Source of the DNA: Candidatus Moraniibacteriota bacterium
GTDB taxonomy: Bacteria; Patescibacteriota; Minisyncoccia; Moranbacterales; UBA1568
Assembly: GCA_016699425.1 (NCBI GenBank)
Contig: CP064975.1
Coordinates: forward strand, 718,098-782,097
Direction: 5' to 3'
DNA length: 64,000 nt
Shown: piece by piece, positions 1-36,121 of the stretch
How positions within the stretch are numbered: position 1 is the stretch's first letter
How the letters are laid out: each line of letters starts with the position of its first letter
Translations under genes and position numbers: made by a program
Notes under the pieces: model-generated
The model's database searches: none
Seen by the model: only the letters and a program-made list of their open reading frames with translations
What the model was told of the DNA's origin: nothing

Positions 1-1310
1 GCCTGATGGAGGATCTTGAAGGACTGGTGGACTTCACGTTCGCGCACTTTGTACCGGGCAAAGACATCCCCCGTCGTTTCTGTCGGGATAGAGAAGTACA
101 CTGTGTCATAGGCCGCATAAGGAAAATCTACTCGGGCATCCCGTTCGATCCCGACCGCCCGTGCCCCGATACCGACGATCCCATGATCTTCACCGACTGT
201 GCGCTCCAGCCGTCCCGTGTCCTGCAGTCGATTCAGGAGGGAGAGGCTTTCGGCGACGGCCTCCATCACGGAGAGGAAATCATTTTCGAGATCGATGAGG
301 TCCGTCTTGAGGAGCGTGAGTTCACCATCCAGGATATCCGCGGTCAGGCCACCTGGCATGAGCCTGCCCCGGAGGAAACGACTGCTGGTGAGCCGCTCAT
401 TCCATGCCATCACTCGCTCGCGGAGACGCGTCCCCTGACTGCCACCAAAGGACAGCCCCGTATCGAGCATGATGAAGGCGAGATCATTGTAGTGATTGGC
501 CAGCCGTTCCAATTCGGCCAGGACCATACGCAGATACAGCGCACGCTTGGGTACTGTGACCGCAGCCAACGACTCAACCGCCTGGCAATAGGCAAGTGCA
601 TGGTGGAATGAACTGTCGCCGGAAATCCGTTCCGCGAGCGCCACCCGTTTCTCAGACGGCAATGCTTCAAATAACTTCTCTGTCCCCTTGTGGACATAGC
701 CGAGCCGTGGCTCGAGTCGGAGGATCTCTTCGCCGAGCACACTGAAGCGGAAATGCCCTGGCTCGATGATACCCGCATGCACGGGACCAACGGGGATTTC
801 ATACACCCCTTCCCCGGCGTACCGCTCGAACGTCGCCCACTCTTTTTCTTTCGGTTCGACGATACCCTGATCCCAATGGAAATCTTTCCGGAGTGGATAG
901 ATATCCTTCGGGAAATTCTCAGCATGGAGATTGATTCGCTCAGCCTGAGGATGTCCCTGTGGCATCAGGCCGAAGAACGTGAGGATCTCCCGCTCATACA
1001 TGGCGAATTCCTGATCTTCTGGCGTCAGTGATGGGAACGTTGAACGCTCCGGGCTCACCGAGAGAAAGGGCACGAGGAAACAGGCTTCCTTAGGAATACC
1101 AAAGACATAATAAATCCGGAAACCCCGGCCCTCCGCTCGCTCATCGGTCGCCGCCACCGTTTTCAGCGGGAGACCGTGAGTGTGCTTCAGTGTCCGAATG
1201 ACCCGCGCGAGATCGGTCGCCGCCACTTCAAACAGCACCCGGTCACCTTCGGCTGTCGGAGTGAAGCCACCTTGGCCAAAACGCAAGAGTAGTTGGATCG
1301 GATCAGTCAT
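1..1310 (-). CDS. Fused NuoC-NuoD-like [NiFe]-hydrogenase large-subunit homolog (HyfG/HycE-like). Partial: the C-terminus runs off the window edge. The L1 Ni-binding Cys motif is replaced (RISGDSSFHH instead of RxCGxCxxxH).
   Basis: Manual translation of the minus strand from the ATG at 1310 gives a continuous reading frame of more than 430 codons. The N-terminal part is NuoC-like (GFRIYYVFG). The large-subunit motifs follow: VYEIPVGPVHAGIIEPGHFRF...GYVHKGTEKL...ERISGDSSFHHALAY. The ORF track missed it because it is open at the window edge. The start lies 3 nt after the stop of the HyfF-like gene. Confidence 0.75.
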   Translation of the reverse strand, partial: MTDPIQLLLRFGQGGFTPTAEGDRVLFEVAATDLARVIRTLKHTHGLPLKTVAATDERAEGRGFRIYYVFGIPKEACFLVPFLSVSPERSTFPSLTPEDQEFAMYEREILTFFGLMPQGHPQAERINLHAENFPKDIYPLRKDFHWDQGIVEPKEKEWATFERYAGEGVYEIPVGPVHAGIIEPGHFRFSVLGEEILRLEPRLGYVHKGTEKLFEALPSEKRVALAERISGDSSFHHALAYCQAVESLAAVTVPKRALYLRMVLAELERLANHYNDLAFIMLDTGLSFGGSQGTRLRERVMAWNERLTSSRFLRGRLMPGGLTADILDGELTLLKTDLIDLENDFLSVMEAVAESLSLLNRLQDTGRLERTVGEDHGIVGIGARAVGIERDARVDFPYAAYDTVYFSIPTETTGDVFARYKVREREVHQSFKILHQ

Positions 1311-1315
1311 AGTGG

Positions 1316-2763
1316 TCAGAGTGAAAAATTCTGAGAAATCGACTGGAGCAAAGCGGGCAACGGCTCAGGCAATTGCCAACTCAGGACGAGCAAGAGAGCA
1401 AACATCAGTACAACCGGGAGCTGCGTAAGCCGATTGCTTTCACCGCGCTCAGTTCCTTCCAGAACCGGTCCATACACCAGTGCCGACAGAATGCGGAAGA
1501 AGCCAAAGAAAATAACACTCAGCGCCAGGAGCAATACTCCAACAAGCCAGGGAGAGAAAGAGATCCCCGCAGAGAGAATGAGCAATTTCGTCACGAAGAG
1601 TGCAAACGGCGGCAATCCGGCGAGCATAAGGATGCCCGCAAAGAAAAGTGGTCCCGTCAGGGGCAGCGCCTTGAAGAGGCCGCTCACATTCTTGAGTTTG
1701 GTCGAACTGAACCGGAGAAAAATATTTCCCGCCAAGAGAAACAACATCGACTTAGCGATAGCATGATAGAACATGTGCAAGAGCCCGGCCATGATCCCGA
1801 CACCACCTAGACCGAAACCGATCGTCATGAGCCCCATGTGTTCGATGCTCGAGTAGGCGAGGAGACGCTTGTAGTTTTCTGGACGAAGATGATGAAGGCG
1901 GCCAGCACAACTGAGAGTGTCCCGAAGAAAATAAGCAGGCCACTCGTGAAGTGAGTGTCCCCCAAGGCGAGATCGGTGATATGCTTCCAGCGAAGGACCG
2001 CAAACAACGCAACGTTGAGGAGTACGCCGGAAAGCAATGCCGAGATGGGCGACGGCGCCTTGCTATGAGCATCTGGAAGCCAGGCATGGAGCGGAGCGAG
2101 GCCCACCTTGGTCCCATAGCCGACGAGGATGAGGACAAAGGCGATCTTGGCGACGTCAGGCGTCATCGATCCAGCCGCGGCAGCCAGACTGGCCCAATCA
2201 GTCGCGCCCGAATGATCATCTGAGAGTGCAAGAAACAATAGCGTCCCGAGGAGACCAATGAGGAGGCCGAGAGAATTCAAGATGAGGTATTTCCACGCTG
2301 CCTCGGTCGCCGACGGTTTGTTGTAGAAACTGATGAGGAACGCCGTCGCCAATGTTGTCGCTTCGACTGCGGTCCAGGTGATAACCGGATGCACGGTCGA
2401 AACTGCGAGGTACATCGCAAAGAGGAAGATTTCGAGGAGGATGAAGAATTGGCGTACCCGACGCGGGCCGATGATGCCCTTTGTTACTTCCGCCCGCAGA
2501 TACCCGACGGAATAGAGACTGACAAAGAAACCAACGAGCGCGATGATGAGAATGAGGTAAACGGAAAGTCCATCCACCGCGAAGACGCCTGCACTTCGGA
2601 CAGTTTCTTCCGCAACCACGCGCGCGACGAGGCGGAACGCGAGTACGAGCTCGACCATCGCCGCCACGATGACACCCATTTCGATGAGTCGGGTCTTCTT
2701 GGCCGGCAAGAGGAAGAAGAGGGCGGCCGCGAGAACTGGAATGAGGACGAGAAAGATAATCAT
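1316..2763 (-). CDS. NuoN/HyfF-like proton-pumping antiporter subunit, interrupted by a -1 frameshift at an A4 tract (plus-strand T4 at 1874-1877).
   Basis: ORF 1825..2763 ends ...AAFIIFVQKTTSVSSPTRASNTWGS. ORF 1316..1837 continues in another frame as NYKRLLAYSSIEHMGLMTIGFG. Restoring one A yields VQKNYKRLLAYSSIEHMG, the canonical antiporter-subunit motif. The WLPDAHSKAPSPISALLSG motif is present. Confidence 0.8.
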
Positions 2764-2772
2764 ATGGACAGT

Positions 2773-3432
2773 TTAGTCTTCAATCAATCGGTTCATCTCA
2801 CGCGTGTCAAGCGATCCGAACTGGCGATGTACGAGACGCAGAAAAGCGTATGCGATGACCATCCAGACGAGGATATCAAAAACGATACCGAGTTCCAGTG
2901 CCAGTGTCTGCTTCACTCCGAGGAAGAGAGCAAAGAGAACGACACTGTTTTCAAGTGCCAAGACAGCGATGATCTGGGCAAGTGCCCCCTGGCGATTGAT
3001 GAGTAAGAAGATGGCGATGAACACCATCGCGATATTGAAGACGAACACATCCGGCGTCACCGAAGAGACCGTCCAGAGTGCAGCAAAGGACTGCGAGGCC
3101 GCAAAGACGATGAGGCCAAGCATGACAGCCAGCGTCGCCGGGGTTGAGAGATAGCTCGTACTCGCAACGAGGTGTCCAAAACGACGCAAGAGTCGCAAGA
3201 AGAAGTACGGTGCAACAATGACCTTGGCGATGAACGTTACCACCCCGACTATCACGAGTCCCAGCTCATCTCCGGCGATGCCAAGCACGATGATGATCGT
3301 CGCCACTGCCGCGGATTGCAACGCATAGAGGCGAAGGGTATAGGTGGTACTTTTCACGAGATGCAAAAGCACAACCGCGACGAAGGCCATGAGATCGAGC
3401 GAGAGCGTCAGTTGGAGAAAATCGGATTCCAT
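2773..3432 (-). CDS. HyfE-like small polytopic membrane subunit (NuoK/NuoJ-like) of the hydrogenase-4-type complex
   Basis: 219 aa, entirely hydrophobic helices. Its size and its position between the NuoH-like and NuoN-like genes match the hyfE slot of the hyf operon. Confidence 0.55.
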   Translation of the reverse strand: MESDFLQLTLSLDLMAFVAVVLLHLVKSTTYTLRLYALQSAAVATIIIVLGIAGDELGLVIVGVVTFIAKVIVAPYFFLRLLRRFGHLVASTSYLSTPATLAVMLGLIVFAASQSFAALWTVSSVTPDVFVFNIAMVFIAIFLLINRQGALAQIIAVLALENSVVLFALFLGVKQTLALELGIVFDILVWMVIAYAFLRLVHRQFGSLDTREMNRLIED

Positions 3433-3436
3433 AAGC

Positions 3437-4405
3437 CTAGGCAGTGAGAGAAACAGTCAGGACGACGGCGATCATACCGAGAACAAAAGAGGTGAAAAGG
3501 AGATCCGGAACACGGAAGATACGGTACTTCGACATGAGCGACTCCAGGAAAGCGATCGCGATCAGGAGTAGAAGTCCTTTCCCGATAAAAATGAGGGTCG
3601 GGACAAGGAGTGCAGAGAACGAAGTGTACTCGAGTGCCACCCCCCATGGGAAGAACACATTGGCACCCAATGCGATGAAGATAAGGAGCTTGTTGGCACT
3701 CGCCCATTCCATGAGCGCGAGGCGCTTGCCGGAGTATTCGAGGAGCATCGCCTCGTGGATCATAGTCAGTTCGAGATGGGTGGCTGGATTGTCGACAGGG
3801 AAGCGCGCGTTTTCGGCGAGGAGCGCGATCGCAAACGCGAGAAACGCGACAAAGAGCGGGAAGGCGGCTGTCACCGGTAGATTACTAAGCTGGGCCACCA
3901 TATCGAGGAGGTGTCCCGTCCCCGCGAGGAATGATGCCGGTAGCAGCGAAAAGATGAGCCCTGCCTCGGCAAGCGCCGCGACCATCATTTCCCGACTCGA
4001 ACCAAAGCCGCCGAAGCCACTGCCCGCATCCATCCCGGCGAGGGCGAGGAAAAATGTCATGAGCGCAAGGAGATATACGATCACGAGGAAGTCACCCGTC
4101 GCCGTCAGCGCCAATTCCGGCACGCCCGGCACAGCCGGAGCGACAGCCGTCACGAGGGGCACGGTCGCCCCGAGCAAGAGCGTAATCGCAAAGATGAGGT
4201 ACGGAGCGAAACGAGTAATCCAAGACGCATCTGCCGAAATCACTTCATCCTTGGCAAAGAGTTTGCGGAAATCGCGATACGGCTGGAAAATATCTGCCCC
4301 CGTCCGCCCTTGCAAGCGGGCTTTCACGCGTCGGATGATGCCGATACACAAAGGCGCCAGGATCGGGACCGCGAGGATTTGGAGAATAAAGAAGAGAAGA
4401 GTCAT
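3437..4405 (-). CDS. NuoH/HycD/HyfC-like membrane subunit
   Basis: The N-terminus MTLLFFILQILAVPILAPLCIGIIRRVKARLQGRTGADIFQPYRDFRKLF matches the HycD/NuoH family. About 323 aa. I chose the internal Met start to avoid overlap with the upstream gene. Confidence 0.8.
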   Translation of the reverse strand: MTLLFFILQILAVPILAPLCIGIIRRVKARLQGRTGADIFQPYRDFRKLFAKDEVISADASWITRFAPYLIFAITLLLGATVPLVTAVAPAVPGVPELALTATGDFLVIVYLLALMTFFLALAGMDAGSGFGGFGSSREMMVAALAEAGLIFSLLPASFLAGTGHLLDMVAQLSNLPVTAAFPLFVAFLAFAIALLAENARFPVDNPATHLELTMIHEAMLLEYSGKRLALMEWASANKLLIFIALGANVFFPWGVALEYTSFSALLVPTLIFIGKGLLLLIAIAFLESLMSKYRIFRVPDLLFTSFVLGMIAVVLTVSLTA

Positions 4406-4415
4406 ACACGTGTGA

Positions 4416-6473
4416 TCAGGAGTGAGTCGCCCACAACAGCACACCGAGGAAAGTGAGGGCAAAGTACAGGATATACACATTCACATTGCCGGTCTGGACG
4501 AGGCGAATCCGGTCCGCGAGGAAATGAAGTGCCGCATTCACGGGCCGATAGAGCCGCTCACGATACACATCGCGAAGCCCCGTCTCGATGGAAACCGACT
4601 TGAAGAAATAGCGCGTCTGATCGTCATGATATTCGATGGTTGACTGCTTCGTCGGTTGGAGGATGCCCCGAAATATCGTGACGAGTGAGCGCGAAAAACT
4701 CGTCGCCGTGATTTCGTTTCGGCCAGAGAGTGGGAATCCGCAGTCCCAGGTCGAACCGATGACGACACACCGCCCCCGAGTCGCGAGACGGACTGCGACC
4801 GTGATCGCTACGAGGATCACTATGAGGAGAATTGCAACGGTCGCGAGCGGGAGCACATCCGCAAATGCATGTCGCGAAGCCACGATCTCGAGGAAAGGGA
4901 AACCGAGCGTCGCCGGGTTGGTGAGACCGATACTCGCGACGATACCAGTCAGTCCGGCGAGGACCGGAGATGAAGCGAGGCCGAGCACTAGCGAGAGGAG
5001 TGCGAGGACACCCATCGGCACCACCATGATCCAGGAGACTTCCTTCGCCGCCTTTGCCTCCGCCGAGCGTGGTCGAGCCAAGAACGTCGTACCAAAGACC
5101 TTCACAAAACACGCGACCGCTAATCCACTGGTGAAGACGAGGCTCGTGAGAGCGATGAGGAAGGCGATCTTCACGGCGAGCGGCGACCCGATCACACCAG
5201 CAAACAGAACTTGAAACGTGAGCCACTCACTGACGAACCCATTGAAGGGTGGGAGCGCCGCGATCGCCAGCGACCCCACCAGAAAAAAAGTGGCGGTGTA
5301 TGGCATCACCCGCAAGAGTCCACCATAGGCTTCCAGGTTACGCGTTCCCGCCCTGCTGACGACTGATCCGGCTCCGAGGAACAGGAGCGACTTGAAAACT
5401 GCATGATTGAGCAGGTGATACAATGCCGCCGCGAGCGCAAACAGCGCTACCCGCTCCTGCCCCAATGCAAAAAGCGTCAACCCCGCACCGAAAGCAATCG
5501 TGATGATACCGACATTCTCCACAGTGCTGTAGGCCAAGAGGCGCTTCAGATCACGCTCGGCATTTGCATACAGGATACCGAGCAAGGCCGAGACGGATCC
5601 GATGATGAGGAAGGTGACCCCCCACTCGACACGGGCCCCCTGGAAGAAATCAAAGAAGAATCGGAACAGCATGAAGAGAGCTGTCTTCACCATGATGCCA
5701 GACATGAGAGCTGAGACATGGGATGGAGCGGCCGGATGCGCCTCGGGGAGCCAGATATGGAGTGGGATGAGCCCTGCTTTGGTCGCAAATCCGATGAGTG
5801 CGAACCCGAGGATGAATGCTTCGCCAGTCGGCGAGAGCGTCCCGAAGGCTTCACGCCAGGTATCGAAAGAAAATGATCCGGTTGCCTGATAGGCGAGGAG
5901 ACAGGCGAGGATGATGAAAGCTGTCCCGAAATGCGTCATGAGGAAATACACGAATCCGGCGCGGACATTTTCGGCTTTCTCATGTTCGAAAACAACGAGG
6001 AAGTATGATGCAAGTGACATCAGCTCCCACACCAAGAGGAAGAACAGTGCCTGGTTCGCAATCGGGATAAGCAAGAGACTACCAACGAAAAGATTGTAGA
6101 AAAAACCAAAAGACCCCAATCGACCACTGCCAATGAAATGTCGGAGATAACCATAGCCATACACCGATGCCAAGAGCGCGACGAGTGAGGCGAGGGCGAG
6201 GAAATAAGCCCCCATCCCATCGATACGAAAGGAAAGTTCCAGGAGCGGGAACGGCCCCGAGTATAGCCAGGCTACTCCCCGACCCCGATACAGTACGGGA
6301 AACGCCATCCCGAGACCGACGACCGATCCCAACGCAGCCATGGCATGCGCCGCCGCATTCGCCACTCGCCCGCCATCATTGATCCGTGCCCCAGCCAACA
6401 GCGAAGCGACCGCTCCGACGAGGAACAGTCCGATAAGGAGAAACAAAGCATCTTCTGAGAGAAAGAATTCCAT
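4416..6473 (-). CDS. NuoL/HycC/HyfB-like antiporter-type membrane subunit (685 aa)
   Basis: Carries HIWLPEAHPAAPSHVSALMSG and KRLLAYSTVENVG, the conserved Mrp/NuoL-family motifs. About 16 transmembrane segments. Confidence 0.85.
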   Translation of the reverse strand: MEFFLSEDALFLLIGLFLVGAVASLLAGARINDGGRVANAAAHAMAALGSVVGLGMAFPVLYRGRGVAWLYSGPFPLLELSFRIDGMGAYFLALASLVALLASVYGYGYLRHFIGSGRLGSFGFFYNLFVGSLLLIPIANQALFFLLVWELMSLASYFLVVFEHEKAENVRAGFVYFLMTHFGTAFIILACLLAYQATGSFSFDTWREAFGTLSPTGEAFILGFALIGFATKAGLIPLHIWLPEAHPAAPSHVSALMSGIMVKTALFMLFRFFFDFFQGARVEWGVTFLIIGSVSALLGILYANAERDLKRLLAYSTVENVGIITIAFGAGLTLFALGQERVALFALAAALYHLLNHAVFKSLLFLGAGSVVSRAGTRNLEAYGGLLRVMPYTATFFLVGSLAIAALPPFNGFVSEWLTFQVLFAGVIGSPLAVKIAFLIALTSLVFTSGLAVACFVKVFGTTFLARPRSAEAKAAKEVSWIMVVPMGVLALLSLVLGLASSPVLAGLTGIVASIGLTNPATLGFPFLEIVASRHAFADVLPLATVAILLIVILVAITVAVRLATRGRCVVIGSTWDCGFPLSGRNEITATSFSRSLVTIFRGILQPTKQSTIEYHDDQTRYFFKSVSIETGLRDVYRERLYRPVNAALHFLADRIRLVQTGNVNVYILYFALTFLGVLLWATHS

Positions 6474-6478
6474 AGGCG

Positions 6479-7015
6479 CTAGGCAGGTGTCGAACGGTTT
6501 TGATCAATCGTGTCCAGAATTTTCAACAATGCCTTCAGTATTTGCTTTGGAGACGGTGGGTCACCAGGGATCATGAAATCCACCGGGACGATATCCTCCA
6601 CCCGATCATAGACCGCGTACGAGCCACGATAGATGCCCCCATCGATCGCTCCGTCCCCGACTGCGACGACCCATTTCGGTGTCGGCATCGCGGCATAACT
6701 GTGGCGGAGACCATCGGCCATATTGCGGCTGACTGGCCCCGTCACAAAGAGCATGTCCGCATGCCGCGGCGAGGCGACGAAACGGACACCGAAGCGCTCG
6801 ACATCATAATACGCATTGGTGAGCGCTGTCAGTTCCTGTTCCTCGGCATTGCTCGATCCAGCCGACACGACCCGGATCGCGAGTGAGCCGCCGAATGTCC
6901 CCCGCACCCGCTGCCTGAGTGCTTCGCCCAATTCCTCGGCTTCACCCCCTCGGATGTCGCCCTCGCTGAGAGCCATGAGCGGCGTCGTAAAGATTTTCTT
7001 CAGCATGCGGTACAT
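6479..7015 (-). CDS. NuoB/HycG-like hydrogenase small-subunit homolog with all four [4Fe-4S] ligand cysteines substituted
   Basis: Aligns motif-by-motif with NuoB: SAGSS for LSCCY, VGDGAIDGG for MGACANSGG, IPGDPPSP for IPGCPPRP. The backbone (RHADMLFVTGPV...MPTPKWVVAVG) is conserved. Confidence 0.8.
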   Translation of the reverse strand: MYRMLKKIFTTPLMALSEGDIRGGEAEELGEALRQRVRGTFGGSLAIRVVSAGSSNAEEQELTALTNAYYDVERFGVRFVASPRHADMLFVTGPVSRNMADGLRHSYAAMPTPKWVVAVGDGAIDGGIYRGSYAVYDRVEDIVPVDFMIPGDPPSPKQILKALLKILDTIDQNRSTPA

Positions 7016-7098
7016 AACGGTCTCGACAATCGGGAAAAATCAAACATCCAACAAAAACTCCTTCCGGTATTTTCACCCGGCTATGATACCCCCTTCGG

Positions 7099-7743
7099 CT
7101 ACCTATTGTCCACTACGCTCGCAGGGACAACCCCGTTCGCCAGGCGTTCCTTCCGGTCCCGCCAGTATTCGAACGCTCCCGGCAATACTGACAAGAAAAT
7201 GATAAGGACGACAATCGGGAGGAGGTAGCGGTCGATATCCTCGATCAGACTGCCCAGATAATAGGCCAAGGTCGTCAGACCAACCGACCACAACAGCGCG
7301 CCTATAAGATTGAAAAAAGCGAATGTCCCATAGTGCATGCGAGCCACCCCGGCGACAATCGGCGCAAAGGTCCGGACAATCGGAACGAAACGCGCCAGGA
7401 CTATCGTCTTGCCGCCGTAGCGCTCATAAAACGCCTGTGCTTTCAGGATATGGGATTTCCGGAACAAGAGCGAATCCTCGCGCGAAAAAATCTTCGGCCC
7501 GACCAAAGCCCCGAACCAGTACCCGACCATGTTCCCCGTGAACGCCGCGACAAACAGAATAACCAGGAGAAGCGGGAGCGAGAAGAACCCCTGCGCCGCC
7601 AATACCCCCGCCACAAAGAGCAAACTATCCCCCGGGAAGAAGAACCCGAGGAAAAGGCCTGTCTCAGCGAAGACAATCGCGAAGAGACCAATATACCCGA
7701 TCGTCTTGATTGCCTCCACCATGTCGATACCGAAGAATTCCAT
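7099..7743 (-). CDS. dedA: DedA/VTT-family membrane protein
   Basis: FFPGDSLLFVAGVLAA...TIVLARFVPIVRTFAPIVAGV is the DedA signature. Four or more transmembrane segments. Confidence 0.8.
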   Translation of the reverse strand: MEFFGIDMVEAIKTIGYIGLFAIVFAETGLFLGFFFPGDSLLFVAGVLAAQGFFSLPLLLVILFVAAFTGNMVGYWFGALVGPKIFSREDSLLFRKSHILKAQAFYERYGGKTIVLARFVPIVRTFAPIVAGVARMHYGTFAFFNLIGALLWSVGLTTLAYYLGSLIEDIDRYLLPIVVLIIFLSVLPGAFEYWRDRKERLANGVVPASVVDNR

Positions 7744-7760: not shown

Positions 7761-9851
7761 CTAAATCGAGTAGGCTTCGTCCTTCAGCTCATTATAGAGC
7801 ATATTCCCCACTTTGCGCGGAAGCATGGCATTTTCCAAGAGTTCGTCGAGCATCCGTTCTTCGGTCTTGAAGAGTGCATAGCGACCGAATGACTCGTTCA
7901 AATACGCGAGCTCCGTCCCAATTTTTGCTGCTACGGCGTCGCGCTTTTTTTCTGCATCCACCCGGAGTCCCTCATACAGTGCGATGACGGCCGTTGTCGA
8001 TGCCTCATCTCCGTAGAGCCCTGGAAAGCGTTCCGAGAGTGACTTGAGACGCCGGAGCACCTTGGCCAGCACCACTTCCTGGGCGCGATAGTAACGGTAT
8101 TCCTCGAGCATTTCCTGTTTGACTGGTTTGGGACGGAACTTCTTCCGCAGCCACATGACGAGTGTCTCGAACCAGTCCTGACGGAAGCGCTCCGCATGAT
8201 GCGATACTTGCTCCCTTCCCTCCTCAACTCGCGACGTCTGAATCGCGATCTTGTTCAAAATCTCCTTGTATTCCGATTCGGAAATCTCCTGATAGACGTA
8301 GAGCTCGCGGAGAAAGCGCTTTTCCATGCCGAGAGCATACATCTGCAGTGCTCGGTTCATGTCGCTCGGTGTCGCCGTAAAGAGCGACTGACAGGCCGCT
8401 ACCGACTTCTCGTAACGCTCCGTGTATTCTTGTTTGAGTCGGGCAAACACATCGCTCTTCACGTATCCTTTCTCATGGAAATCGGCGAGCTTCTCGAGCG
8501 CCTCCTGATAGACCAGGGCCGAGCACTCATGGTACTCCACGGTCTCGAGAGATGTCAGATCCGACAGTTTCATCTTCTTGATCATCGCTCCGATCGAGGT
8601 CGCTTTGATGAGGAGAGTGAAGTAGATGCAGCCAATCGTGATGGCCGCGATGAATTCCTTCACGGTAAAGTCATAATTCCAACCTGGAAGTATAAGTGTA
8701 TCGGGGATGAGAAGCACCATCGTGACCGCCAGCGCTCCGCGGAGACTCCCCCACGCGAGCAGATGCTGCCACGACATCGGAATCTGATCTTCTTTCTTCA
8801 GTCGATTCACCATAGCCACGACTGGATAAATGGACAGTCCTCGGCCAATCATCACCACCACAACCGTCATGAGCATCGGCACGATAAATTGATCAAAATG
8901 GATCGGAAGATCAGCAAAGAGTAGTCCCATCAGAATGAAAACGAGCGAGTTTGCCACGAAGGCGAAGTACCCCCAGAACTTCTCCATGTATTCCTCGACG
9001 CGCGGCGAAATCTTGAACCGACCATAGTTGCCGATGACCATCGACGCCATCACGGTCGCGATAATCGACGAAAATCTGATTTCTTGGCCGAAGAGGACGA
9101 GATGATGCGAAATGAGTTCGGAGAGTATGAAGGTGAGATGCGCCACGAGCATGGTGAGCGTGATTTCAACGTGCTCATTATCCTGCACTTTACCGATGAT
9201 CTTGGAAAATACGAACCCCATCAAGAGCCCGAAAATGCCACCACCAAGCACCATCGTCATAAACATGAATACACCCTCGAGTATGCTCCCGAGTCCCGAG
9301 AACCCGGCCATCGCTACATCAAGGACGATGAGAAAGAGAGCAAGCGAAGTACCATCATTGAACAAGCTCTCCCCCTCAAAGATGAGTGAGAGACGGCGCG
9401 GCACGCCGAATTCCTTGAACAATGCGAGCACCGCCACCGGATCCGTCGCCGAGATGAGCGCCCCGAAAACGAGCGTCGCCATGAACGGCACCGGGAAGCC
9501 GATGAACTTCAGTCCCCAGAAAAGCACGAACGCCACGAAAAAGGCAGAAACGACAAGACTCACAACTGACAGCCACGAGATCGATCGAACATTTTCGGCC
9601 ATCTCACGCATGTTCATGTTGTAGGCCGACTCAAAGATGAGCACCGGCAGAAAGACAAAGAAGAGGAGCTCGGGAGTCAGTTCAAAACTTTTGATGAAAT
9701 GAAAGAATGCAAAATGCGTGAGTGGCACCAGGATAGAGCCGACGATGACGAGCAGCACTGTATACGGCAATTTCAAGCGGCCGGCGACAAAATACGTGCC
9801 AATACAGATGAGCATGAGTACGGCGACCGCGAGCACGACTTCGAGTGACAT
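7761..9851 (-). CDS. nhaP: Na+(K+)/H+ antiporter of the NhaP/CPA1 type with a long cytoplasmic C-terminal domain
   Basis: 696 aa. The N-terminal 400 aa are polytopic with the CPA1 ATDPVAVLALF motif. The C-terminal roughly 300 aa are soluble. Confidence 0.8.
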   Translation of the reverse strand: MSLEVVLAVAVLMLICIGTYFVAGRLKLPYTVLLVIVGSILVPLTHFAFFHFIKSFELTPELLFFVFLPVLIFESAYNMNMREMAENVRSISWLSVVSLVVSAFFVAFVLFWGLKFIGFPVPFMATLVFGALISATDPVAVLALFKEFGVPRRLSLIFEGESLFNDGTSLALFLIVLDVAMAGFSGLGSILEGVFMFMTMVLGGGIFGLLMGFVFSKIIGKVQDNEHVEITLTMLVAHLTFILSELISHHLVLFGQEIRFSSIIATVMASMVIGNYGRFKISPRVEEYMEKFWGYFAFVANSLVFILMGLLFADLPIHFDQFIVPMLMTVVVVMIGRGLSIYPVVAMVNRLKKEDQIPMSWQHLLAWGSLRGALAVTMVLLIPDTLILPGWNYDFTVKEFIAAITIGCIYFTLLIKATSIGAMIKKMKLSDLTSLETVEYHECSALVYQEALEKLADFHEKGYVKSDVFARLKQEYTERYEKSVAACQSLFTATPSDMNRALQMYALGMEKRFLRELYVYQEISESEYKEILNKIAIQTSRVEEGREQVSHHAERFRQDWFETLVMWLRKKFRPKPVKQEMLEEYRYYRAQEVVLAKVLRRLKSLSERFPGLYGDEASTTAVIALYEGLRVDAEKKRDAVAAKIGTELAYLNESFGRYALFKTEERMLDELLENAMLPRKVGNMLYNELKDEAYSI

Positions 9852-9982
9852 AGGCGTTATTTATAGCAAACAAACAAAAGAGGCTCTTCTGAGCCATCGT
9901 TTCTATCGGCTCCATTCTACGCCCTCCCCTCCGTTTGGTCAAAGCAAAGACCGTAATCCTCAGTCACCGACACCATCACTAT

Positions 9983-10010
9983 TGATTCTTTGGCTACCCG
10001 ATGCTATGCT
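9983..10010 (+). promoter_or_regulatory. Candidate sigma70 promoter (TTGATT-16-TATGCT) for the downstream membrane-protein gene
   Basis: The hexamers lie about 65 nt upstream of the ATG at 10076, inside the divergent intergenic region. Confidence 0.35.
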
Positions 10011-16860: not shown

Positions 16861-17400
16861 CTATTCGCCCTTCGCAGCTTTCATCTTCGACTTATCTTCT
16901 TCCCCACTATCCGCTGGCTCGGCCTGCAGTTCTTCGGCCCGCTTGGCCTTGTGCTTTTCACTCGTATCATCCTTCATCGGCTCCCCCATCTCACGGTAAA
17001 TCGTCCCGAGTACACCATTGACGAAGCGCGGCGTCGCATCACTCCCGAAACTTTTCCCCAGTTCGATCGCTTCATTGATCGCGACCTTGGGTGGCACTTC
17101 CTCATAATCCCCAAACATAAGTTCCGCGATGCCGAGCCGCAAGATATTGCGATCGACAACCGTCACCTGCTCGAGCGGCCACTCGGGTGCACATTTTTCG
17201 ATGAGCTGATCGATTGTCGAACGATTGTGCAGCACGCTCTCCATCAAACGGCGCGCGAAAGTGTACTCCTCGAGCCCAGGGGCGAATTCCTCCATGTTTT
17301 TGCGGAGGACGGCGAGCGCTTTTTCATCATGCTTCCCCTGAAAGTCCCATTCGAAGAGAGACTGCATGACGACCGAACGCTGAAGGTGTCTATTGGCCAT
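16861..17400 (-). CDS. nusB: Transcription antitermination factor NusB with an acidic/Lys-rich C-terminal tail
   Basis: RRLMESVLHNRSTIDQLIEKCAPEWPLEQVTVVDRNILRLGIAELMF is a NusB fold motif. Confidence 0.85.
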   Translation of the reverse strand: MANRHLQRSVVMQSLFEWDFQGKHDEKALAVLRKNMEEFAPGLEEYTFARRLMESVLHNRSTIDQLIEKCAPEWPLEQVTVVDRNILRLGIAELMFGDYEEVPPKVAINEAIELGKSFGSDATPRFVNGVLGTIYREMGEPMKDDTSEKHKAKRAEELQAEPADSGEEDKSKMKAAKGE

Positions 17401-17557
17401 GGCGGCAAGGAACTACTTGATTATGTTTAGGTTCAGTATAGCATTTCTCCCTCTGACGTACAGCAGGATCTCGATACTTGTACCTTTTGCCGCGCCAGTT
17501 GGCGGATTGAATATAATCTTCTGACTCAAGATTCCTCATTCGATATTCTCCATTCTA

Positions 17558-17581
17558 AAGCAAAAGACTGCCCTTAGGCAG
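17558..17581 (-). terminator. Rho-independent terminator after rpmF (CUGCC-UAAG-GGCAG followed by UCUUUUG). The stop codon sits in the loop.
   Basis: Inverted repeat ctgcc/ggcag at plus 17568-17581. A plus-strand A-run at 17562-17567 gives a U-tract on the minus strand. Confidence 0.55.
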
Positions 17582-17777
17582 CTTTTGCGGTTTTCATTTT
17601 TGGAGTGGTCTTCACAACCTCGCGTCCCTTGTAGTGGCCGCACTCTTTGCAAGCCCGATGTGGGAGGACTTCCGCCTGACACTTCGGACACTTCGCGGTA
17701 ACCACGGGAGTAAGTTCGAGGAATTTGCGCGCTCGGTCGCGGCGATGATGGGTATGTCGTTGCTTGGGGAGAGCCAT
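17574..17777 (-). CDS. rpmF: 50S ribosomal protein L32
   Basis: MALPKQRHTHHRRDRARKF…CPKCQAEVLPHRACKECGHY is L32 with its zinc ribbon. Confidence 0.85.
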   Translation of the reverse strand: MALPKQRHTHHRRDRARKFLELTPVVTAKCPKCQAEVLPHRACKECGHYKGREVVKTTPKMKTAKAA

Positions 17778-17861
17778 AGACGAACAGTTAGCGAGTCTAC
17801 CCTGAGCTCAGTCGAAGGGTAGGTCTGACGAGGAATTAGCGTTTAGGGGATAGCGTGTAAC

Positions 17862-17886
17862 GTATAGAAAAAGCCTCTGCAAGGCT
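17862..17886 (-). terminator. Rho-independent terminator after rnhB (AGCCU-UGCAG-AGGCU followed by UUUUU)
   Basis: Inverted repeat at plus 17872-17886, with plus-strand A5 at 17867-17871. Confidence 0.5.
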
Positions 17887-17897
17887 CTGCTAGAGTA

Positions 17898-18653
17898 TCA
17901 GATCGGTCGCTTCTTGGCAATACTGGGCCGTTTCTTGGGCTGGAGATCGCGGGAAAACCGCTGATTGACCGTCTCGGGATTGGCCAGCTGGACTGGACGG
18001 AAGCTTTTCCGGTGAATCGGGGTCGGCCCGTACTTTCGGAGGGCTTCCATGTGCTCCCGCGTCCCATAACCCTTGTGCCGGGCGAAGCCATACGCCGGAT
18101 ATTCGTGGTCAGCGAGGATGATGAGCCGGTCGCGCGTCACTTTGGCGATGATGGACGCGGCGGCAATCGACTTCACCAGTCCGTCGCCATCGACAATCGC
18201 TTCTTGTGCTAGGGAAGTATTTGGAATCTTCTGATTGCCATCTATCAATAAAACAAGTTTCTCTTCCCCCTTGATTCCTAACTCTTGATTCAAGATTCTC
18301 CGCAATTCAGATATTGCGGACCGCATCGCCAGGAACGTCGCCTGAAGGATATTCACTCGATCGATCGTCTCGGCAGAAATGATCCCCACCCCGATATGGA
18401 ATTGATCTCGTACAAAGAGATACGCCTGTTCGCGCTGTTTTTCACTAAGTTTCTTCGAATCCCGCACCAACTTCCATAGTTTCTCATTTTCTTCTTTCTC
18501 GAGATTCGAAATCCGAGATTCGAAATTTTTCAGCAAAACTGCTGCCGCCACGACCGGTCCAGCCAAGGGTCCCCGCCCGGCCTCATCGATCCCAATCGGG
18601 ATTAGGCCCTGTCCAGTAAGCCTCTTTTCATATTCAAAAGTCGGGAGTTGCAT
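17898..18653 (-). CDS. rnhB: Ribonuclease HII with a basic C-terminal tail
   Basis: GIDEAGRGPLAGPVVAAAV is the RNase HII active-site motif. Confidence 0.9.
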   Translation of the reverse strand: MQLPTFEYEKRLTGQGLIPIGIDEAGRGPLAGPVVAAAVLLKNFESRISNLEKEENEKLWKLVRDSKKLSEKQREQAYLFVRDQFHIGVGIISAETIDRVNILQATFLAMRSAISELRRILNQELGIKGEEKLVLLIDGNQKIPNTSLAQEAIVDGDGLVKSIAAASIIAKVTRDRLIILADHEYPAYGFARHKGYGTREHMEALRKYGPTPIHRKSFRPVQLANPETVNQRFSRDLQPKKRPSIAKKRPI

Positions 18654-33934: not shown

Positions 33935-34135
33935 ATGGCCCCTGCTGTCCAAATCATCGCTTCAGCTTTTCTCTTCTCCATCGGTCTCATCGGGCCCGAG
34001 AGTGTGTTCGCGACAACCGAGCCGAGTTTCACGTTCTCTATTCTCTCGCTGACCGCCCTCGTCCTCGGCACCCTCATCTTCGTCAGCTTCATCGTGAGCC
34101 GCATCGCGACCTGGATCATCAACCGACAAGCCTAA
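33935..34135 (+). CDS. Small hydrophobic protein (66 aa, 2 TM), translationally coupled to the downstream glycosyltransferase
   Basis: The ORF is hydrophobic. The strong promoter lies immediately upstream and the stop is 5 nt before the GT2 ATG. The opposing minus-strand ORF looks like noise. Confidence 0.4.
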   Translation: MAPAVQIIASAFLFSIGLIGPESVFATTEPSFTFSILSLTALVLGTLIFVSFIVSRIATWIINRQA

Positions 34136-34140
34136 CGCTC

Positions 34141-35409
34141 ATGGCTACTGCCTACGGAGAACTCACCGCCGGACTCATCGTCATCCTCGGACTGCTGAAT
34201 GTCTTCCGCATGGCGTTTTTCATGATCGGGTCGGATGTCTACACCGTGAAGCGCGCGCTCCGGAACCGCCGGAAGAAACGCATCACGTTCGGCCTCCCGA
34301 CGATCTCGGTCGTCATCCCCGCCCACAACGAGGAGAACACCATCATCCGCACGATTGAGTCTGTCCTGAACGCCAAATACCCGAGCGAACTCCTCGAGAT
34401 CGTCGTCATGGACGATGGCTCCACCGATCTCACCTACCAGATGGTCGAGCGCTACCGTCTCCTCGTCGATGGTCACTTCAAACTGGTCCGCCAGGAAAAC
34501 GCCGGCAAGGCCCACGCACTGAACAACGGCATGCGCCATCACGCTACCGGCGAACTCATGATGTGTCTCGACGCCGACTCATCGCTCGACCCGGGCGCGC
34601 TCATCAATGCGGCGCGCTATTTCGTCGACCCGCGAGTCGTCGCGCTCTCGGCCAATGTCAAAATCCGCCCGAGCGGCACGCTCTTCAATCTGATCCAGGT
34701 CTTCGAGTACCTCGTCTGCTATCAGATGAAACGTGCGCAGACCGTCTTCAATATCGAGTACATCATCGGCGGCATCGGCTCGACCTTCCGCCGCTCAGCC
34801 TTGATCGAAGTCGGCTTCTACGACACCGACACCATCACCGAGGACATCGACCTCACCATGAAGCTCCTCCGTCTCGGCGGCAAGGACCACCGCGTCATCT
34901 ATGGTTCGGATGTCATCGCCTATACCGAGTCCGTCCTCGACCTGGCCGGCCTCATCCGCCAGCGCTTCCGCTGGAAGTACGGCCGTGCCCAGACCTTCAT
35001 CAAAAACCACCGCCTCTTTTTCGCGACCGAGCGCAAGCACTCGCGCGTCCTCACCTGGTTCTACCTCCCCTACGCGCTTTTCTCCGACCTCGCGTTCTTC
35101 TTCGAGCCGTTCATGGTGTCGTATATCCTCTACATCGTCGTGGCCTACGGCGACTGGGTCACGCTCGCGTCGGCATTCGTCGTCGTCGGCGGCTACCTAT
35201 CGCTCAACATCCTCGCCGAAGACACGATTCCCGTCCGACAGAAATTCGCCCTCGCGCTCGTCGCGCCGTTCATGTATTTCTTCTTCTACCTCCTCAGCTA
35301 TGTGGAGTACCTCGCGCTCATCAAGACCTATATGAAGTTCTGGGAGATCCCCGCGAGCATCCGCGCCAAGCAATGCGGCTGGACCCATGTCGAACGCGCC
35401 AAGGCCTAA
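34141..35409 (+). CDS. Membrane-embedded processive family-2 glycosyltransferase (PgaC/IcaA/cellulose-synthase-like)
   Basis: SVVIPAHNEE…VMDDGS, the DAD motif in MCLDADS, and QRFRWKYG (QxxRW). One N-terminal and four C-terminal TM helices. Confidence 0.85.
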   Translation: MATAYGELTAGLIVILGLLNVFRMAFFMIGSDVYTVKRALRNRRKKRITFGLPTISVVIPAHNEENTIIRTIESVLNAKYPSELLEIVVMDDGSTDLTYQMVERYRLLVDGHFKLVRQENAGKAHALNNGMRHHATGELMMCLDADSSLDPGALINAARYFVDPRVVALSANVKIRPSGTLFNLIQVFEYLVCYQMKRAQTVFNIEYIIGGIGSTFRRSALIEVGFYDTDTITEDIDLTMKLLRLGGKDHRVIYGSDVIAYTESVLDLAGLIRQRFRWKYGRAQTFIKNHRLFFATERKHSRVLTWFYLPYALFSDLAFFFEPFMVSYILYIVVAYGDWVTLASAFVVVGGYLSLNILAEDTIPVRQKFALALVAPFMYFFFYLLSYVEYLALIKTYMKFWEIPASIRAKQCGWTHVERAKA

Positions 35410-35423
35410 GACAATTTGAATAA

Positions 35424-35467: not shown

Positions 35468-35486
35468 ACCCCGCAAGGCGGAGTGC

Positions 35487-36023: not shown

Positions 36024-36121
36024 GAATTGCCTCCTTGGCAAACGGAATTTGGTGTCAAAAAAATAGCGCGATAGGTGCTATTTGTCAACTCAAAATAAGC
36101 TTGGCAGTCCGTTATTTTTAG

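What the first reader, a model, noticed from the sequence alone, without database searches (positions are those of the whole stretch)
1..7015. Hydrogenase-4/complex-I-like operon in which every checked metal-ligand cysteine is gone: a candidate cofactor-less (Ehr-type) ion-translocating module
Six co-directional genes, small-subunit homolog to HyfB-like to HyfC-like to HyfE-like to HyfF-like to a NuoC-NuoD-fusion large subunit, reproduce the hyf/hyc gene order. The sequence lacks all redox-cofactor ligands I could check. The small subunit replaces all four N2 [4Fe-4S] cysteines (SAGSS for LSCCY, VGDGAIDGG for GACANSGG, IPGDPPSP for IPGCPPRP). The large subunit has RISGDSSFHH where [NiFe] hydrogenases have RxCGxCxxxH. 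I verified this codon by codon at 600-629. Such a complex cannot be a hydrogenase and cannot hold an N2 cluster. It is more plausibly a stripped-down, Mrp/Ehr-like cation-translocating machine. A DedA protein and an NhaP Na+/H+ antiporter sit immediately upstream on the same strand, which points to an ion-homeostasis neighbourhood. Group-4-hydrogenase relatives lacking Ni ligands are known. Loss of the small-subunit cluster as well is at least uncommon, and in a reduced genome it raises the question of what drives or uses the complex.
Basis: partly seen in the sequence, partly recalled or inferred. Interest (0 to 1): 0.8.

Follow-up and report, generated by a model that had tools for sequence, protein, structure and literature searches.

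The report
Cofactor-free hydrogenase-like ion-translocating membrane complex
A six-gene operon of an ultra-small (CPR, Moranbacteria) bacterium encodes a relative of hydrogenase-4 and respiratory complex I that has lost every metal-binding site yet is strongly conserved. In related bacteria it often sits inside or next to the ATP synthase operon, so it most likely moves ions across the membrane without any redox chemistry.

Summary
On the minus strand, 7015..1 encodes small subunit, HyfB-, HyfC-, HyfE- and HyfF-like proteins and a NuoC-NuoD large subunit. All four [NiFe] cysteines and all four proximal [4Fe-4S] cysteines are replaced, and the small subunit has no cysteine at all. There is no HycF/NuoI ferredoxin subunit and no quinone His/Tyr.

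It belongs to the CPR-specific Ehr clade, whose large-subunit Cys loss was reported by Jaffe et al. 2020. I found no report of three further features:
- Loss of the small-subunit cluster is clade-wide: 83 loci, against 73 non-CPR relatives that keep all four Cys.
- The peripheral subunits stay as constrained as in FeS-bearing relatives (dN/dS 0.03-0.18), and all proton-channel and coupling-loop residues are invariant.
- In 10 of 46 distinct lineages the operon lies directly behind, or inside, the F1Fo ATP synthase operon. In Moranbacteria it follows DedA, and in some also NhaP.

Best reading: a redox-independent, Mrp-like ion translocator in the same ion circuit as the ATPase. The mechanism is inferred, not shown.

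The HyfF-like gene carries a one-base A5-to-A4 homopolymer frameshift that a 98-99% identical relative lacks. This is probably an assembly error.

Rating: new variant of a known kind.

The parts
6479..7015 (-). Small subunit (NuoB/HycG/MbhJ homolog), 178 aa with zero cysteines. The four cluster-ligand positions are S55, E58, G122 and D152.
   Evidence: Pfam Oxidored_q6 at 2e-23 and NCBIfam NuoB. Alignments to MbhJ and NuoB. AF2 model with pLDDT 75, and Foldseek top hits are NuoB/PSST/MbhJ chains.
4416..6473 (-). HyfB-like antiporter-type subunit, 685 aa. It carries the full charged set E150, K232, K263, H353, H357, K361 and E416.
   Evidence: NCBIfam PRK06521 at 1.3e-190. Residue mapping to E. 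coli NuoL/M/N shows these positions invariant in 13 CPR-type sequences and near-invariant in 50 other sequences.
3437..4405 (-). HyfC/NuoH-like subunit, 322 aa (the listed ORF runs up to 4480). E-channel and TM5-6 loop residues are conserved: E172, D230, E237, E243, E248 and R320, in the numbering of the 347-aa ORF.
   Evidence: Pfam NADHdh at 2e-39. Mapping to E. coli NuoH E157, D213, E220, E228 and R293. Start position inferred from relatives.
2773..3432 (-). HyfE-like small membrane subunit, 219 aa, with invariant K70 and E161.
   Evidence: NCBIfam PRK11492 'hydrogenase 4 membrane subunit' at 5e-12. Conservation shown.
1316..2763 (-). HyfF-like antiporter-type subunit, 482 aa once repaired. 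Here it is split into ORFs 2763..1825 and 1837..1316. Conserved residues are E134, K219, H330, H334, K338 and K393.
   Evidence: NCBIfam hydrogenase 4 subunit F matches on both halves. Residue mapping. Intact 482-487 aa genes in all relatives.
1875..1878 (-). A4 homopolymer where a 98-99% identical relative (L170) has A5. This one-base loss is the frameshift that splits the HyfF-like gene.
   Evidence: It is the only frame change in about 20 kb of syntenic sequence.
1..1310 (-). Large subunit, a NuoC-NuoD fusion (HycE/HyfG homolog). Residues 1-436 of 528 are in the window (in frame from base 3). L1 equivalent is RISGDSSFHH. The C-terminal L2 equivalent NLSYSGNDL lies beyond the window.
   Evidence: Pfam Complex1_30kDa plus Complex1_49kDa. 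HycE alignment. Full-length P0001.
600..629 (-). Codons for RISGDSSFHH, the former RxCGxCxxxH NiFe-ligand motif. The complex I quinone Tyr position is G231.
7099..7743 (-). DedA/VTT-domain membrane protein, 83 nt upstream of the small subunit. This neighbour is conserved within Moranbacteria.
   Evidence: Same position in L001, L088, L090, L091 and L092.
7761..9851 (-). CPA1 (NhaP-type) Na+/H+ exchanger with a long C-terminal domain, 17 nt upstream of DedA.
   Evidence: Pfam Na_H_Exchanger at 1.9e-53 and TIGR00831 at 2.8e-76. Conserved in L001, L090 and L092.
7083..7112 (-). Sigma-70-like promoter match (TGGACA-18-TATCAT) between DedA and the small subunit. No terminator-like site lies in this gap.
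   Evidence: This is a consensus match only.

Best explanation
The operon encodes the CPR-type variant of an Ehr (energy-converting-hydrogenase-related) complex.

Composition (shown). The membrane arm has two Mrp/NuoL-type antiporter subunits (HyfB- and HyfF-like), a NuoH-like subunit and a HyfE-like subunit. It is capped by a NuoB-like protein and a NuoC-NuoD fusion. No ligands remain for Ni-Fe, for the proximal [4Fe-4S] cluster or for quinone, and there is no ferredoxin-type subunit. Redox chemistry therefore cannot drive it.

Function (inferred). It works as a redox-independent cation/proton translocator, that is, an Mrp-like secondary antiporter or converter of ion gradients. It operates in the same ion circuit as the F1Fo ATPase, which in these fermentative cells, lacking a respiratory chain, probably runs backwards to build a proton gradient. 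Its role would be pH/Na+ homeostasis or interconversion of gradients.

Role of the cap (inferred). The cofactor-less cap is kept because it closes and gates the NuoH-type E-channel. The carboxylates and serines that replaced the cysteines, together with the invariant coupling loops, suggest that it still switches conformation in response to protonation or ion binding rather than electron arrival.
For: Cofactor ligands are absent.
- Shown by alignments to MbhJ, NuoB and HycE.
- The small subunit has zero Cys. 108 of its 120 nearest 90%-identity clusters also have zero Cys, and 112 of 120 share the SEGD pattern.
- No HyfH/NuoI/HyfA homolog is found in Cys-less operons. The three weak hits in those loci belong to another operon or lie on the opposite strand.
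- The quinone His and Tyr positions are I182 and G231.

The machine is maintained.
- dN/dS is 0.03-0.09 against L001 and 0.06-0.18 against the 98-99% identical L170 (the latter for four of six genes; HyfE is identical).
- The small subunit is the most conserved subunit of the clade: 0.63 mean identity against 0.55 for HyfB. The ratio is about the same as in FeS-bearing relatives.

The ion pathways are intact.
- The TM5 Glu, TM7 Lys, TM8 Lys, His/His/Lys and TM12 Glu or Lys of the antiporter subunits are conserved (the HyfF-like subunit has N250 at the TM8 Lys position). So are the NuoH E-channel residues.
- The HAGIIEPGHFRF loop of the large subunit is invariant.

Genomic context.
- In 9 of 49 Cys-less loci with at least 2 kb of upstream sequence, atp genes lie within 3 kb upstream. 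In five of these the atpC stop is 10-133 nt before the small-subunit start.
- In a Saccharibacteria MAG the six genes sit between atpG and atpD with gaps of 6 and 25 nt.
- 10 of 46 distinct lineages are atp-linked. ATP synthase is the top recurrent neighbour family. None of the CCCC-type loci is linked.
- In Moranbacteria, including this window, DedA lies directly upstream, and in some also a CPA1 Na+/H+ exchanger.

The biology fits. The literature states that Patescibacteria keep an F-type ATP synthase without a respiratory chain and may run it in reverse to drive antiporters or pH homeostasis (PMC11665869; PMC10633639).
Against: - No experiment exists on any member. Ion specificity, direction and stoichiometry are unknown.
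- True Mrp antiporters work without any NuoB/NuoD/NuoH-type cap. The strong constraint on the cap and its coupling loops may therefore mean that it does more than gate, for example binds a ligand or supplies energy.
- ATP synthase linkage is seen in only about a fifth of lineages and not in this window. The NhaP/DedA neighbourhood is lineage-specific.
- Most clade members keep one cysteine plus three aspartates (DCDD or TCDD) at the old cluster site, so binding of some metal is not excluded.
- In this window the HyfF-like gene is frameshifted.
Confidence: 0.52

Rival explanations
1. The cap has acquired a new non-redox energy input or ligand-driven function. Examples are binding or turnover of a small molecule in the former NiFe/quinone pocket, or direct physical coupling to the ATP synthase. 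The complex would then be a primary pump or a ligand-gated transporter rather than a simple secondary antiporter.
For: - The cap is as constrained as in cofactor-bearing relatives, and the small subunit is the most conserved subunit.
- The replacement residues are themselves conserved: SGD[ST]S and SYSGND in the large subunit, and Asp-rich DCDD/TCDD/SEGD patterns plus invariant D121 and E59 in the small subunit.
- The coupling loops (HAGIIEPGHFRF and the NuoH TM5-6 loop) are invariant.
- The operon is embedded within atp operons.
Against: - No nucleotide-binding or other catalytic domain was detected in any subunit.
- The SGD/SYSGND motifs are shared with FeS-bearing Ehr complexes, so they are not an innovation that accompanied cofactor loss.
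- No additional conserved partner gene lies in the operon.
Confidence: 0.17
2. It regulates or buffers the proton-motive force for the ATP synthase. It would be a gated proton (or ion) leak or sensor, or an assembly or stability partner of F1Fo, rather than a transporter for cation homeostasis.
For: Tight co-operonic arrangement with atpA/G/D/C in several lineages. Carboxylate-rich replacements at the old cluster site could sense pH. This is inference.
Against: About 80% of lineages show no atp linkage. Two full antiporter-type subunits with complete Lys/Glu chains are more machinery than a leak or sensor needs.
Confidence: 0.1
3. It is still a redox enzyme. It would use unconventional ligands (Asp, Glu, Ser or His, or the single retained Cys) for a metal centre, or receive electrons from a partner encoded elsewhere.
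For: Most clade members show one Cys plus three Asp at the four cluster positions, and Asp can ligate Fe-S clusters in some proteins (own knowledge). Other Ehr complexes are assumed to be redox-driven (PMC6349859).
Against: - This window's lineage has S/E/G/D at the four positions and no cysteine at all. 108 of 120 nearest clusters have zero Cys.
- There is no ferredoxin-like subunit to relay electrons.
- There are no NiFe or quinone ligands.
- No redox neighbour is conserved.
Confidence: 0.07
4. It is a decaying relic: a non-functional remnant of an ancestral hydrogenase-like complex in a reduced genome.
For: All cofactors are lost. The HyfF-like gene is frameshifted in this window.
Against: - Purifying selection acts on all six genes.
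- Hundreds of intact homologous operons span many CPR lineages at 50-80% identity.
- The frameshift is a single A5-to-A4 homopolymer change that is absent from a 98-99% identical relative and from all others.
Confidence: 0.03

Closest known systems
[quoted passage not shown] Geobacter sulfurreducens EhrA-S and the Nitrospira, Rokubacteria and Margulisbacteria Ehr; and the monophyletic CPR Ehr clade of Jaffe et al. 2020
   Same: The large subunit is related to group 4 (4f-like) hydrogenases but lacks the L1/L2 cysteines, with the same SGD[ST]..H and SYSGND replacement motifs. The same HyfB/C/E/F-type membrane subunits are present.
   Different: All 73 non-CPR relatives sampled keep the four small-subunit cysteines. 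Many fuse or add a HycF/NuoI-type 2x[4Fe-4S] module, and most place the small subunit last. The CPR-type clade has lost the cluster ligands, has no ferredoxin module, places the small subunit first, and is recurrently linked to atp genes.
E. coli hydrogenase-4 (HyfABCDEFGHI) and formate hydrogenlyase (Hyc, PDB 7Z0S)
   Same: The best sequence matches for every subunit are HyfB, HyfC, HyfE, HyfF, the HycE/HyfG-type NuoC-NuoD fusion and HycG/HyfI. The B-C-(D)-E-F-G order is preserved.
   Different: No NiFe site, no Fe-S cluster, no HyfA, HyfD, HyfH or HyfJ, and no formate dehydrogenase partner. The small subunit gene has moved to the front.
Mrp (Mnh/Pha) multisubunit cation/proton antiporters
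   Same: A redox-independent membrane machine built around two NuoL/M/N-type antiporter subunits with the canonical Glu/Lys chain. This is the proposed mode of action.
   Different: Mrp has no NuoH-, NuoB- or NuoD-type subunits and has MrpB/E/F/G, none of which is detected here. Membership is therefore not claimed, only functional analogy.
Respiratory complex I / NDH-1 Q-module and P-module; MBH and MBS of Pyrococcus (PDB 6CFW, 6U8Y)
   Same: Homologous NuoB, NuoC, NuoD, NuoH and antiporter-like subunits. The E-channel and loop residues are conserved.
   Different: No N2-type cluster, no quinone His/Tyr, no NuoI/MbhN, and no NuoA/J/K set or Mrp-type sodium module.

Membership tests
Group 4 membrane-bound [NiFe] hydrogenase (Hyf/Hyc/Mbh/Ech) | Large-subunit L1 (RxCGxCxxxH) and L2 (DPCxxCxxR/H) cysteine pairs that bind Ni-Fe | tested here: not met
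   RISGDSSFHH and NLSYSGNDL. C->S, C->S, C->S, C->G against HycE.
Group 4 membrane-bound [NiFe] hydrogenase (Hyf/Hyc/Mbh/Ech) | Small subunit with four Cys binding the proximal [4Fe-4S] cluster | tested here: not met
   S55, E58, G122 and D152. No Cys anywhere in the protein.
Group 4 membrane-bound [NiFe] hydrogenase (Hyf/Hyc/Mbh/Ech) | HycF/HyfH/MbhN/NuoI-type 2x[4Fe-4S] subunit in the complex | tested here: not met
   The window's own genes carry no 4Fe-4S/ferredoxin family, and the syntenic relatives end the operon after the large subunit. phmmer with E. coli HyfH, NuoI and HyfA found no operon-encoded homolog in 83 Cys-less loci.
[quoted passage not shown] | Large subunit homologous to group 4 hydrogenases but lacking the NiFe-binding residues (definition as quoted in PMC6349859 and PMC10284858) | tested here: met
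[quoted passage not shown] | Encoded together with NuoB-like, NuoH-like and Mrp/NuoL-type antiporter-like subunits | tested here: met
[quoted passage not shown] | Presumed redox-driven, with a cluster-bearing small subunit, as in all non-CPR members sampled | tested here: not met
   73 of 73 non-CPR-type small subunits are CCCC. This clade has at most 1 of 4 Cys.
CPR-specific Ehr clade (Jaffe et al. 2020) | Monophyletic group of CPR large subunits within Ehr that lack the metal-binding Cys | tested here: met
   P0001 is annotated Candidatus Moraniibacteriota, and the top 120 hits that carry a name are almost all CPR (one is labelled Undibacterium sp.). The Cys-less clade is monophyletic in an NJ tree with bootstrap 74/100. 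This is a rough distance tree, not ML.
Respiratory complex I (NDH-1) | N2 cluster cysteines in NuoB, and quinone-binding His (beta1-beta2 loop) and Tyr in NuoD | tested here: not met
   No Cys in the small subunit. I182 and G231 occupy the His and Tyr positions.
Respiratory complex I (NDH-1) | NuoA, NuoJ, NuoK and NuoI subunits | tested here: not met
   No phmmer hits with E. coli NuoA/J/K, and no operon-encoded NuoI homolog in the Cys-less loci. Only a HyfE-like subunit is present.
Mrp cation/proton antiporter | MrpA/MrpD-type subunits with a conserved Glu/Lys proton pathway | tested here: met
   E150, K232, K263, H353, H357, K361 and E416 in HyfB-like. E134, K219, H330, H334, K338 and K393 in HyfF-like.
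Mrp cation/proton antiporter | MrpB, C, E, F and G subunits and absence of a peripheral arm | tested here: not met
   No Mrp-specific Pfam families. NuoB/C/D/H homologs are present.
Mrp cation/proton antiporter | Measured Na+(K+)/H+ antiport activity | not testable with these tools
   Needs proteoliposome or complementation assays.

The most novel reading that the evidence does not exclude
This is a natural 'redox-dead' complex-I-type machine. A cluster of carboxylates (Asp/Glu) has replaced the N2-type Fe-S cluster, and the former NiFe/quinone pocket is lined by conserved Ser/Asp/His. All conformational coupling elements are kept. The cap would then act as a protonation- or cation-driven switch that powers or gates ion translocation. 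Together with the co-operonic F1Fo ATPase, it would form the core chemiosmotic circuit of CPR bacteria, which lack respiratory chains. That would bear on the open question of why these organisms keep an ATP synthase.
Probability: 0.2. Interest if true: 0.85.

Novelty: new variant of a known kind. Interest (0 to 1): 0.66.

Why it matters
The complex I superfamily couples a redox event in the NuoB/NuoD pocket to ion pumping tens of angstroms away, and how it does so is still debated. Here evolution has removed every redox cofactor from the pocket. It has nonetheless kept the pocket proteins, their coupling loops and the ion channels under the same constraint as before. This gives a natural system for separating the conformational and ion-transfer machinery from electron transfer.

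It also bears on CPR/Patescibacteria physiology. These bacteria lack respiratory chains yet almost always keep an F-type ATP synthase, and its role is an open question (PMC11665869). A conserved ion-translocating complex that is repeatedly built into the atp operon is a concrete, testable candidate partner.

Practically, these genes are annotated as 'NADH-quinone oxidoreductase subunit B/C' or 'Ni,Fe-hydrogenase III'. Such labels would mislead metabolic reconstructions into inferring respiration or H2 metabolism.

Tried and rejected
- Exact-sequence contig look-ups for the window's small subunit and for P0001 found nothing. The contig beyond position 1 could therefore not be fetched. The C-terminus came from the P0001 protein record, and the downstream context from relatives L001-L003 and L170.
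- AlphaFold2 of the large subunit with an 8-sequence alignment gave a poor model (pLDDT 58) and was not used. No multimer or cavity analysis was possible.
- Pseudogene/relic reading: rejected on dN/dS and on the homopolymer nature of the single frameshift.
- Misalignment of cysteines: rejected because the small subunit has no Cys at all. The large subunit's two Cys (C77, C242) lie outside the motifs, and the C242 position also carries Cys in the consensus of the true hydrogenases.
- NhaP/DedA as a general functional partner: this holds only for Moranbacteria. DedA recurs in 5 lineages and NhaP in 3 loci.
- Other recurrent neighbours (histidine kinase, UvrD-type helicase, ABC ATPase) are generic families.
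- Rfam and tRNA scans of the window found nothing.
- Literature searches for a prior description of small-subunit cluster loss or atp linkage in CPR Ehr found none. Marreiros et al. 2013 and Coppi 2005 are not in the held library, so prior mention there cannot be excluded.

Full report
**1. What is in the sequence**

All features lie on the minus strand. Reading 5' to 3' on that strand, the genes are:
- a CPA1/NhaP-type Na+/H+ exchanger (9851..7761);
- a DedA/VTT protein (7743..7099);
- a NuoB/HycG-type small subunit (7015..6479, 178 aa);
- a HyfB-like subunit (6473..4416, 685 aa);
- a NuoH/HyfC-like subunit (most likely 4405..3437);
- a HyfE-like subunit (3432..2773);
- a HyfF-like subunit (2763..1316);
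- a NuoC-NuoD fusion large subunit (1310..3), cut off by the window edge.

Intergenic gaps are 4-10 nt within the operon, 83 nt between DedA and the small subunit, and 17 nt between NhaP and DedA. Pfam and NCBIfam confirm every assignment. A promoter-like match lies in the DedA-small gap, with no terminator-like site there (consensus match only).

**2. The cysteine losses are real**

In HMMER alignments to solved structures, the MbhJ/HycG ligand positions map to S55, E58, G122 and D152. The 178-aa small subunit has no cysteine anywhere. HycE 'RVCGICGFAH' aligns to 'RISGDSSFHH', encoded at 629..600.

The part of the large subunit beyond the window was recovered from a 100%-identical 528-aa database protein. 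This is P0001, annotated 'MAG: Candidatus Moraniibacteriota', from a contig of 1,217,328 bp. Its C-terminus 'NLSYSGNDL' aligns to HycE 'DPCYSCTD', so all four NiFe ligands are gone.

The complex I quinone ligands are also absent. The His of the beta1-beta2 loop corresponds to I182, and the Tyr to G231.

The operon has no HycF/HyfH/NuoI-type ferredoxin subunit, and no HyfA or HyfD. In relatives the operon ends after the large subunit, with an opposite-strand gene following. By sequence, the complex has no site for any known redox cofactor.

**3. The HyfF-like gene is frameshifted in this window**

It is split into two ORFs, 2763..1825 and 1837..1316. Relative to five relatives there is exactly one indel in the gene. 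It is also the only frame change in about 20 kb of syntenic sequence.

A contig that is 98-100% identical over the first five genes (L170) reads 'CAGAAAAACTAC'. The window reads 'CAGAAAACTAC', with the A4 run at 1875-1878. Restoring one A gives an intact 482-aa protein containing the family motif KRLLAYSSIEHMG. This is a homopolymer length error of the assembly or a very recent slip. It is not gene decay.

**4. What family it is**

A scan of GTDB species genomes with the large subunit returned relatives from many phyla, classified.
- Large subunits with 'R[IV]SGD[ST]..H ... SYSGND' instead of the CxxC pairs are widespread. They occur in Nitrospirota, Rokubacteria, Acidobacteriota, Verrucomicrobiota, Bacillota, Thaumarchaeota and Methanoperedens. 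These are Ehr complexes as defined in the literature.
- Six Bacillota loci are true hydrogenases with the cysteines intact.
- Every one of these non-CPR relatives keeps the four small-subunit cysteines.
- Only one clade lacks them. It has the gene order small-B-C-E-F-large and at least about 42% large-subunit identity to the window (48% or more for all but L082).

A metagenome scan with the Cys-less small subunit added 80 loci. Over both sets, 83 small subunits have at most 1 of the 4 Cys. The patterns are DCDD 28, TCDD 19, SEGD 9, DCDN 7 and others. 73 are CCCC.

Among the 120 nearest 90%-identity clusters of the window's small subunit, 112 share its SEGD pattern and 108 have no cysteine. Among the 150 nearest 50%-identity representatives, about 25 lack at least three ligands.

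The Cys-less clade is monophyletic in a distance tree of large subunits, with bootstrap 74/100. Named members are Moran-, Davies-, Falkow-, Magasanik-, Wildermuth-, Uhr- and Howlettbacteria, Saccharibacteria and Paceibacterota. A few MAGs are labelled Firestonebacteria, Endomicrobiales, Fibrobacteria, Thermoleophilia and Bdellovibrionales, and I did not verify their binning.

Jaffe et al. 2020 already described a monophyletic CPR clade within Ehr whose large subunits lack the metal-binding cysteines. They concluded that it 'likely cannot interact with H2'. Their analysis covers only the L1/L2 motifs of the large subunit. I found no paper describing loss of the small-subunit cluster, the absence of a ferredoxin subunit, or the genomic linkage described below. 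Two subscription papers, Marreiros 2013 and Coppi 2005, could not be read.

**5. It is a maintained machine, not a remnant**

dN/dS is 0.03-0.09 for all genes measurable against L001, where dS is saturated near 2. It is 0.06-0.18 against the near-identical L170, where HyfE is identical and gives no ratio.

Within the Cys-less clade the small subunit is the most conserved subunit, with mean pairwise identity 0.63. The values for the others are HyfB 0.55, large subunit 0.57, and HyfE 0.46 as the lowest. The ratios to HyfB (1.14 and 1.03) are practically those of the FeS-bearing relatives (1.20 and 1.03). Losing the cofactors did not relax selection on the peripheral cap.

Functional residues are conserved, as mapped to E. 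coli Nuo and Hyf proteins:
- HyfB-like keeps E150, K232, K263, H353, H357, K361 and E416. These correspond to NuoM E144, K234, K265 and E407, and NuoL H334, H338 and K342.
- HyfF-like keeps E134, K219, H330, H334, K338 and K393, but has N250 at the TM8 Lys position.
- The NuoH-like subunit keeps E172, D230, E237, E243, E248 and R320. These correspond to NuoH E157, D213, E220, D223, E228 and R293, and include the TM5-6 loop.
- HyfE-like keeps K70 and E161.
- The large-subunit loop HAGIIEPGHFRF is invariant across CPR-type, FeS-bearing Ehr and true hydrogenases.

An AF2 model of the small subunit (pLDDT 75) matches NuoB/PSST/MbhJ chains. Its least confident stretch is residues 55-69, the former ligand loop.

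**6. Genomic context points to the ion circuit**

Neighbours of the 83 Cys-less loci were clustered. The only specific recurrent families are F1Fo ATP synthase subunits (alpha/beta in 11 loci, epsilon in 10, gamma in 9) and DedA (4). The rest are generic families.
- In a Saccharibacteria MAG (L012) the six genes lie between atpG and atpD, with gaps of 6 and 25 nt, followed by atpC.
- In L111, L113, L120, L130 and L131 the small subunit starts 10-133 nt after the atpC stop.
- L005, L070, L095, L101, L109 and L133 have atp genes directly upstream. L007 and L135 have them in other orientations.
- Counting lineages distinct at 80% small-subunit identity, 10 of 46 with usable upstream sequence are atp-linked. 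These span 58-86% mutual identity.
- None of the CCCC-type loci is atp-linked.
- By my rough estimate, a 7-kb operon landing within 3 kb of the atp operon in a 1-Mb genome is expected in under 1% of cases.

The c-subunits of the linked atp operons read '...AFAEAVAIYALV'. They lack the Gln/Ser/Thr signature of Na+-binding rings, which suggests H+ coupling. This rests on motif knowledge and is an inference.

In the Moranbacteria subclade, including this window, the operon instead follows DedA, and in some also a CPA1 exchanger. No atp genes lie in the 64-kb window.

**7. Interpretation**

Shown by the data:
- There are no ligands for Ni-Fe, Fe-S or quinone, and no electron-relay subunit.
- The ion-pathway residues are intact.
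- Purifying selection acts on all six subunits.
- There is clade-specific linkage to the ATP synthase.

Inferred from the data:
- The complex is a redox-independent ion translocator of the Mrp type.
- It works in the circuit fed by an ATPase that runs in reverse in these fermentative, respiration-less cells. The literature raises exactly this possibility for Patescibacteria without naming a partner.
- The cap is retained as a lid or gate of the NuoH-type channel.

The cap is under equal constraint, its coupling loops are invariant, and its substitutions are non-random and acidic. Together these leave room for a more interesting reading in which the cap is a protonation- or ligand-driven switch. 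Ion specificity and direction cannot be decided in silico.

**8. Verdict**

The family, and its large-subunit Cys loss in CPR, are already known. The complete loss of cofactor sites with undiminished constraint, and the embedding in atp operons, appear undescribed. I rate it a new variant of a known kind, with interest about 0.66.

Noticed in passing
window 1875-1878 (minus strand A4 run): A one-base homopolymer contraction (A5 in the 98-99% identical L170, A4 here) splits the HyfF-like gene into two ORFs. It is the only frame change in about 20 kb of syntenic sequence. It is either an assembly error or a very recent mutation.
   Followed up: yes
window ~1-1550 versus 1550-7300, compared with L170: Nucleotide identity to contig L170 is 96-100% from the DedA end through HyfF. 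It then drops abruptly to about 76% across the whole large-subunit gene. Either the large subunit was exchanged by recombination between Moranbacteria strains, or L170 is a chimeric metagenome contig.
   Followed up: partly
L104 3399-17996 (metagenome contig Ga0209417_1000050): A Cys-less small-first operon (TCDD small subunit at 10001) sits between the large-subunit gene (8478-9989) and the 254-aa, 14-Cys small-subunit gene (17232-17996) of what looks like a second, FeS-bearing operon. L011 and L141 also carry a second hyfB/hyfC set next to the Cys-less operon. Some organisms therefore encode two paralogous complexes side by side.
   Followed up: no
L004, L008, L010, L011, L015 (genome contigs): Cys-less CPR-type operons occur in MAGs labelled Bdellovibrionales, Firestonebacteria, Thermoleophilia, Fibrobacteria and Endomicrobiales. 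This could be horizontal transfer out of CPR or mis-binned contigs.
   Followed up: no
L028 and L053 (Rokubacteria, FeS-bearing, small-first operons): A DedA gene lies next to the small subunit here too, but on the opposite strand. This hints that the DedA association may predate the CPR clade, or it may be coincidence.
   Followed up: no
window 4406-4480: The longest ORF for the HyfC-like gene starts 75 nt upstream of the start used by all relatives and overlaps the end of HyfB. The Cys-rich 25-aa extension (MCISCTLPSLSSVCCCGRLTPDHTC) is probably not translated.
   Followed up: partly
window 34001-38000: GC content jumps to 0.61 at 34-36 kb, where there is a family-2 glycosyltransferase and an ORF with no Pfam match. 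It falls to 0.45 at 36-38 kb. The window average is about 0.54, so this may be a foreign cell-envelope island. The other window genes checked are housekeeping (DnaE, LigA, ClpB, SMC, GatA/B, a type IV pilus ATPase) plus one ORF with a spermidine-synthase-like domain.
   Followed up: no
database annotations of P0001, P0013, P0273, P0288 and others: Members of this cofactor-less family are annotated as 'NADH-quinone oxidoreductase subunit B/C/F' or 'Ni,Fe-hydrogenase III large/small subunit'. These names imply redox functions that the sequences cannot support.
   Followed up: yes
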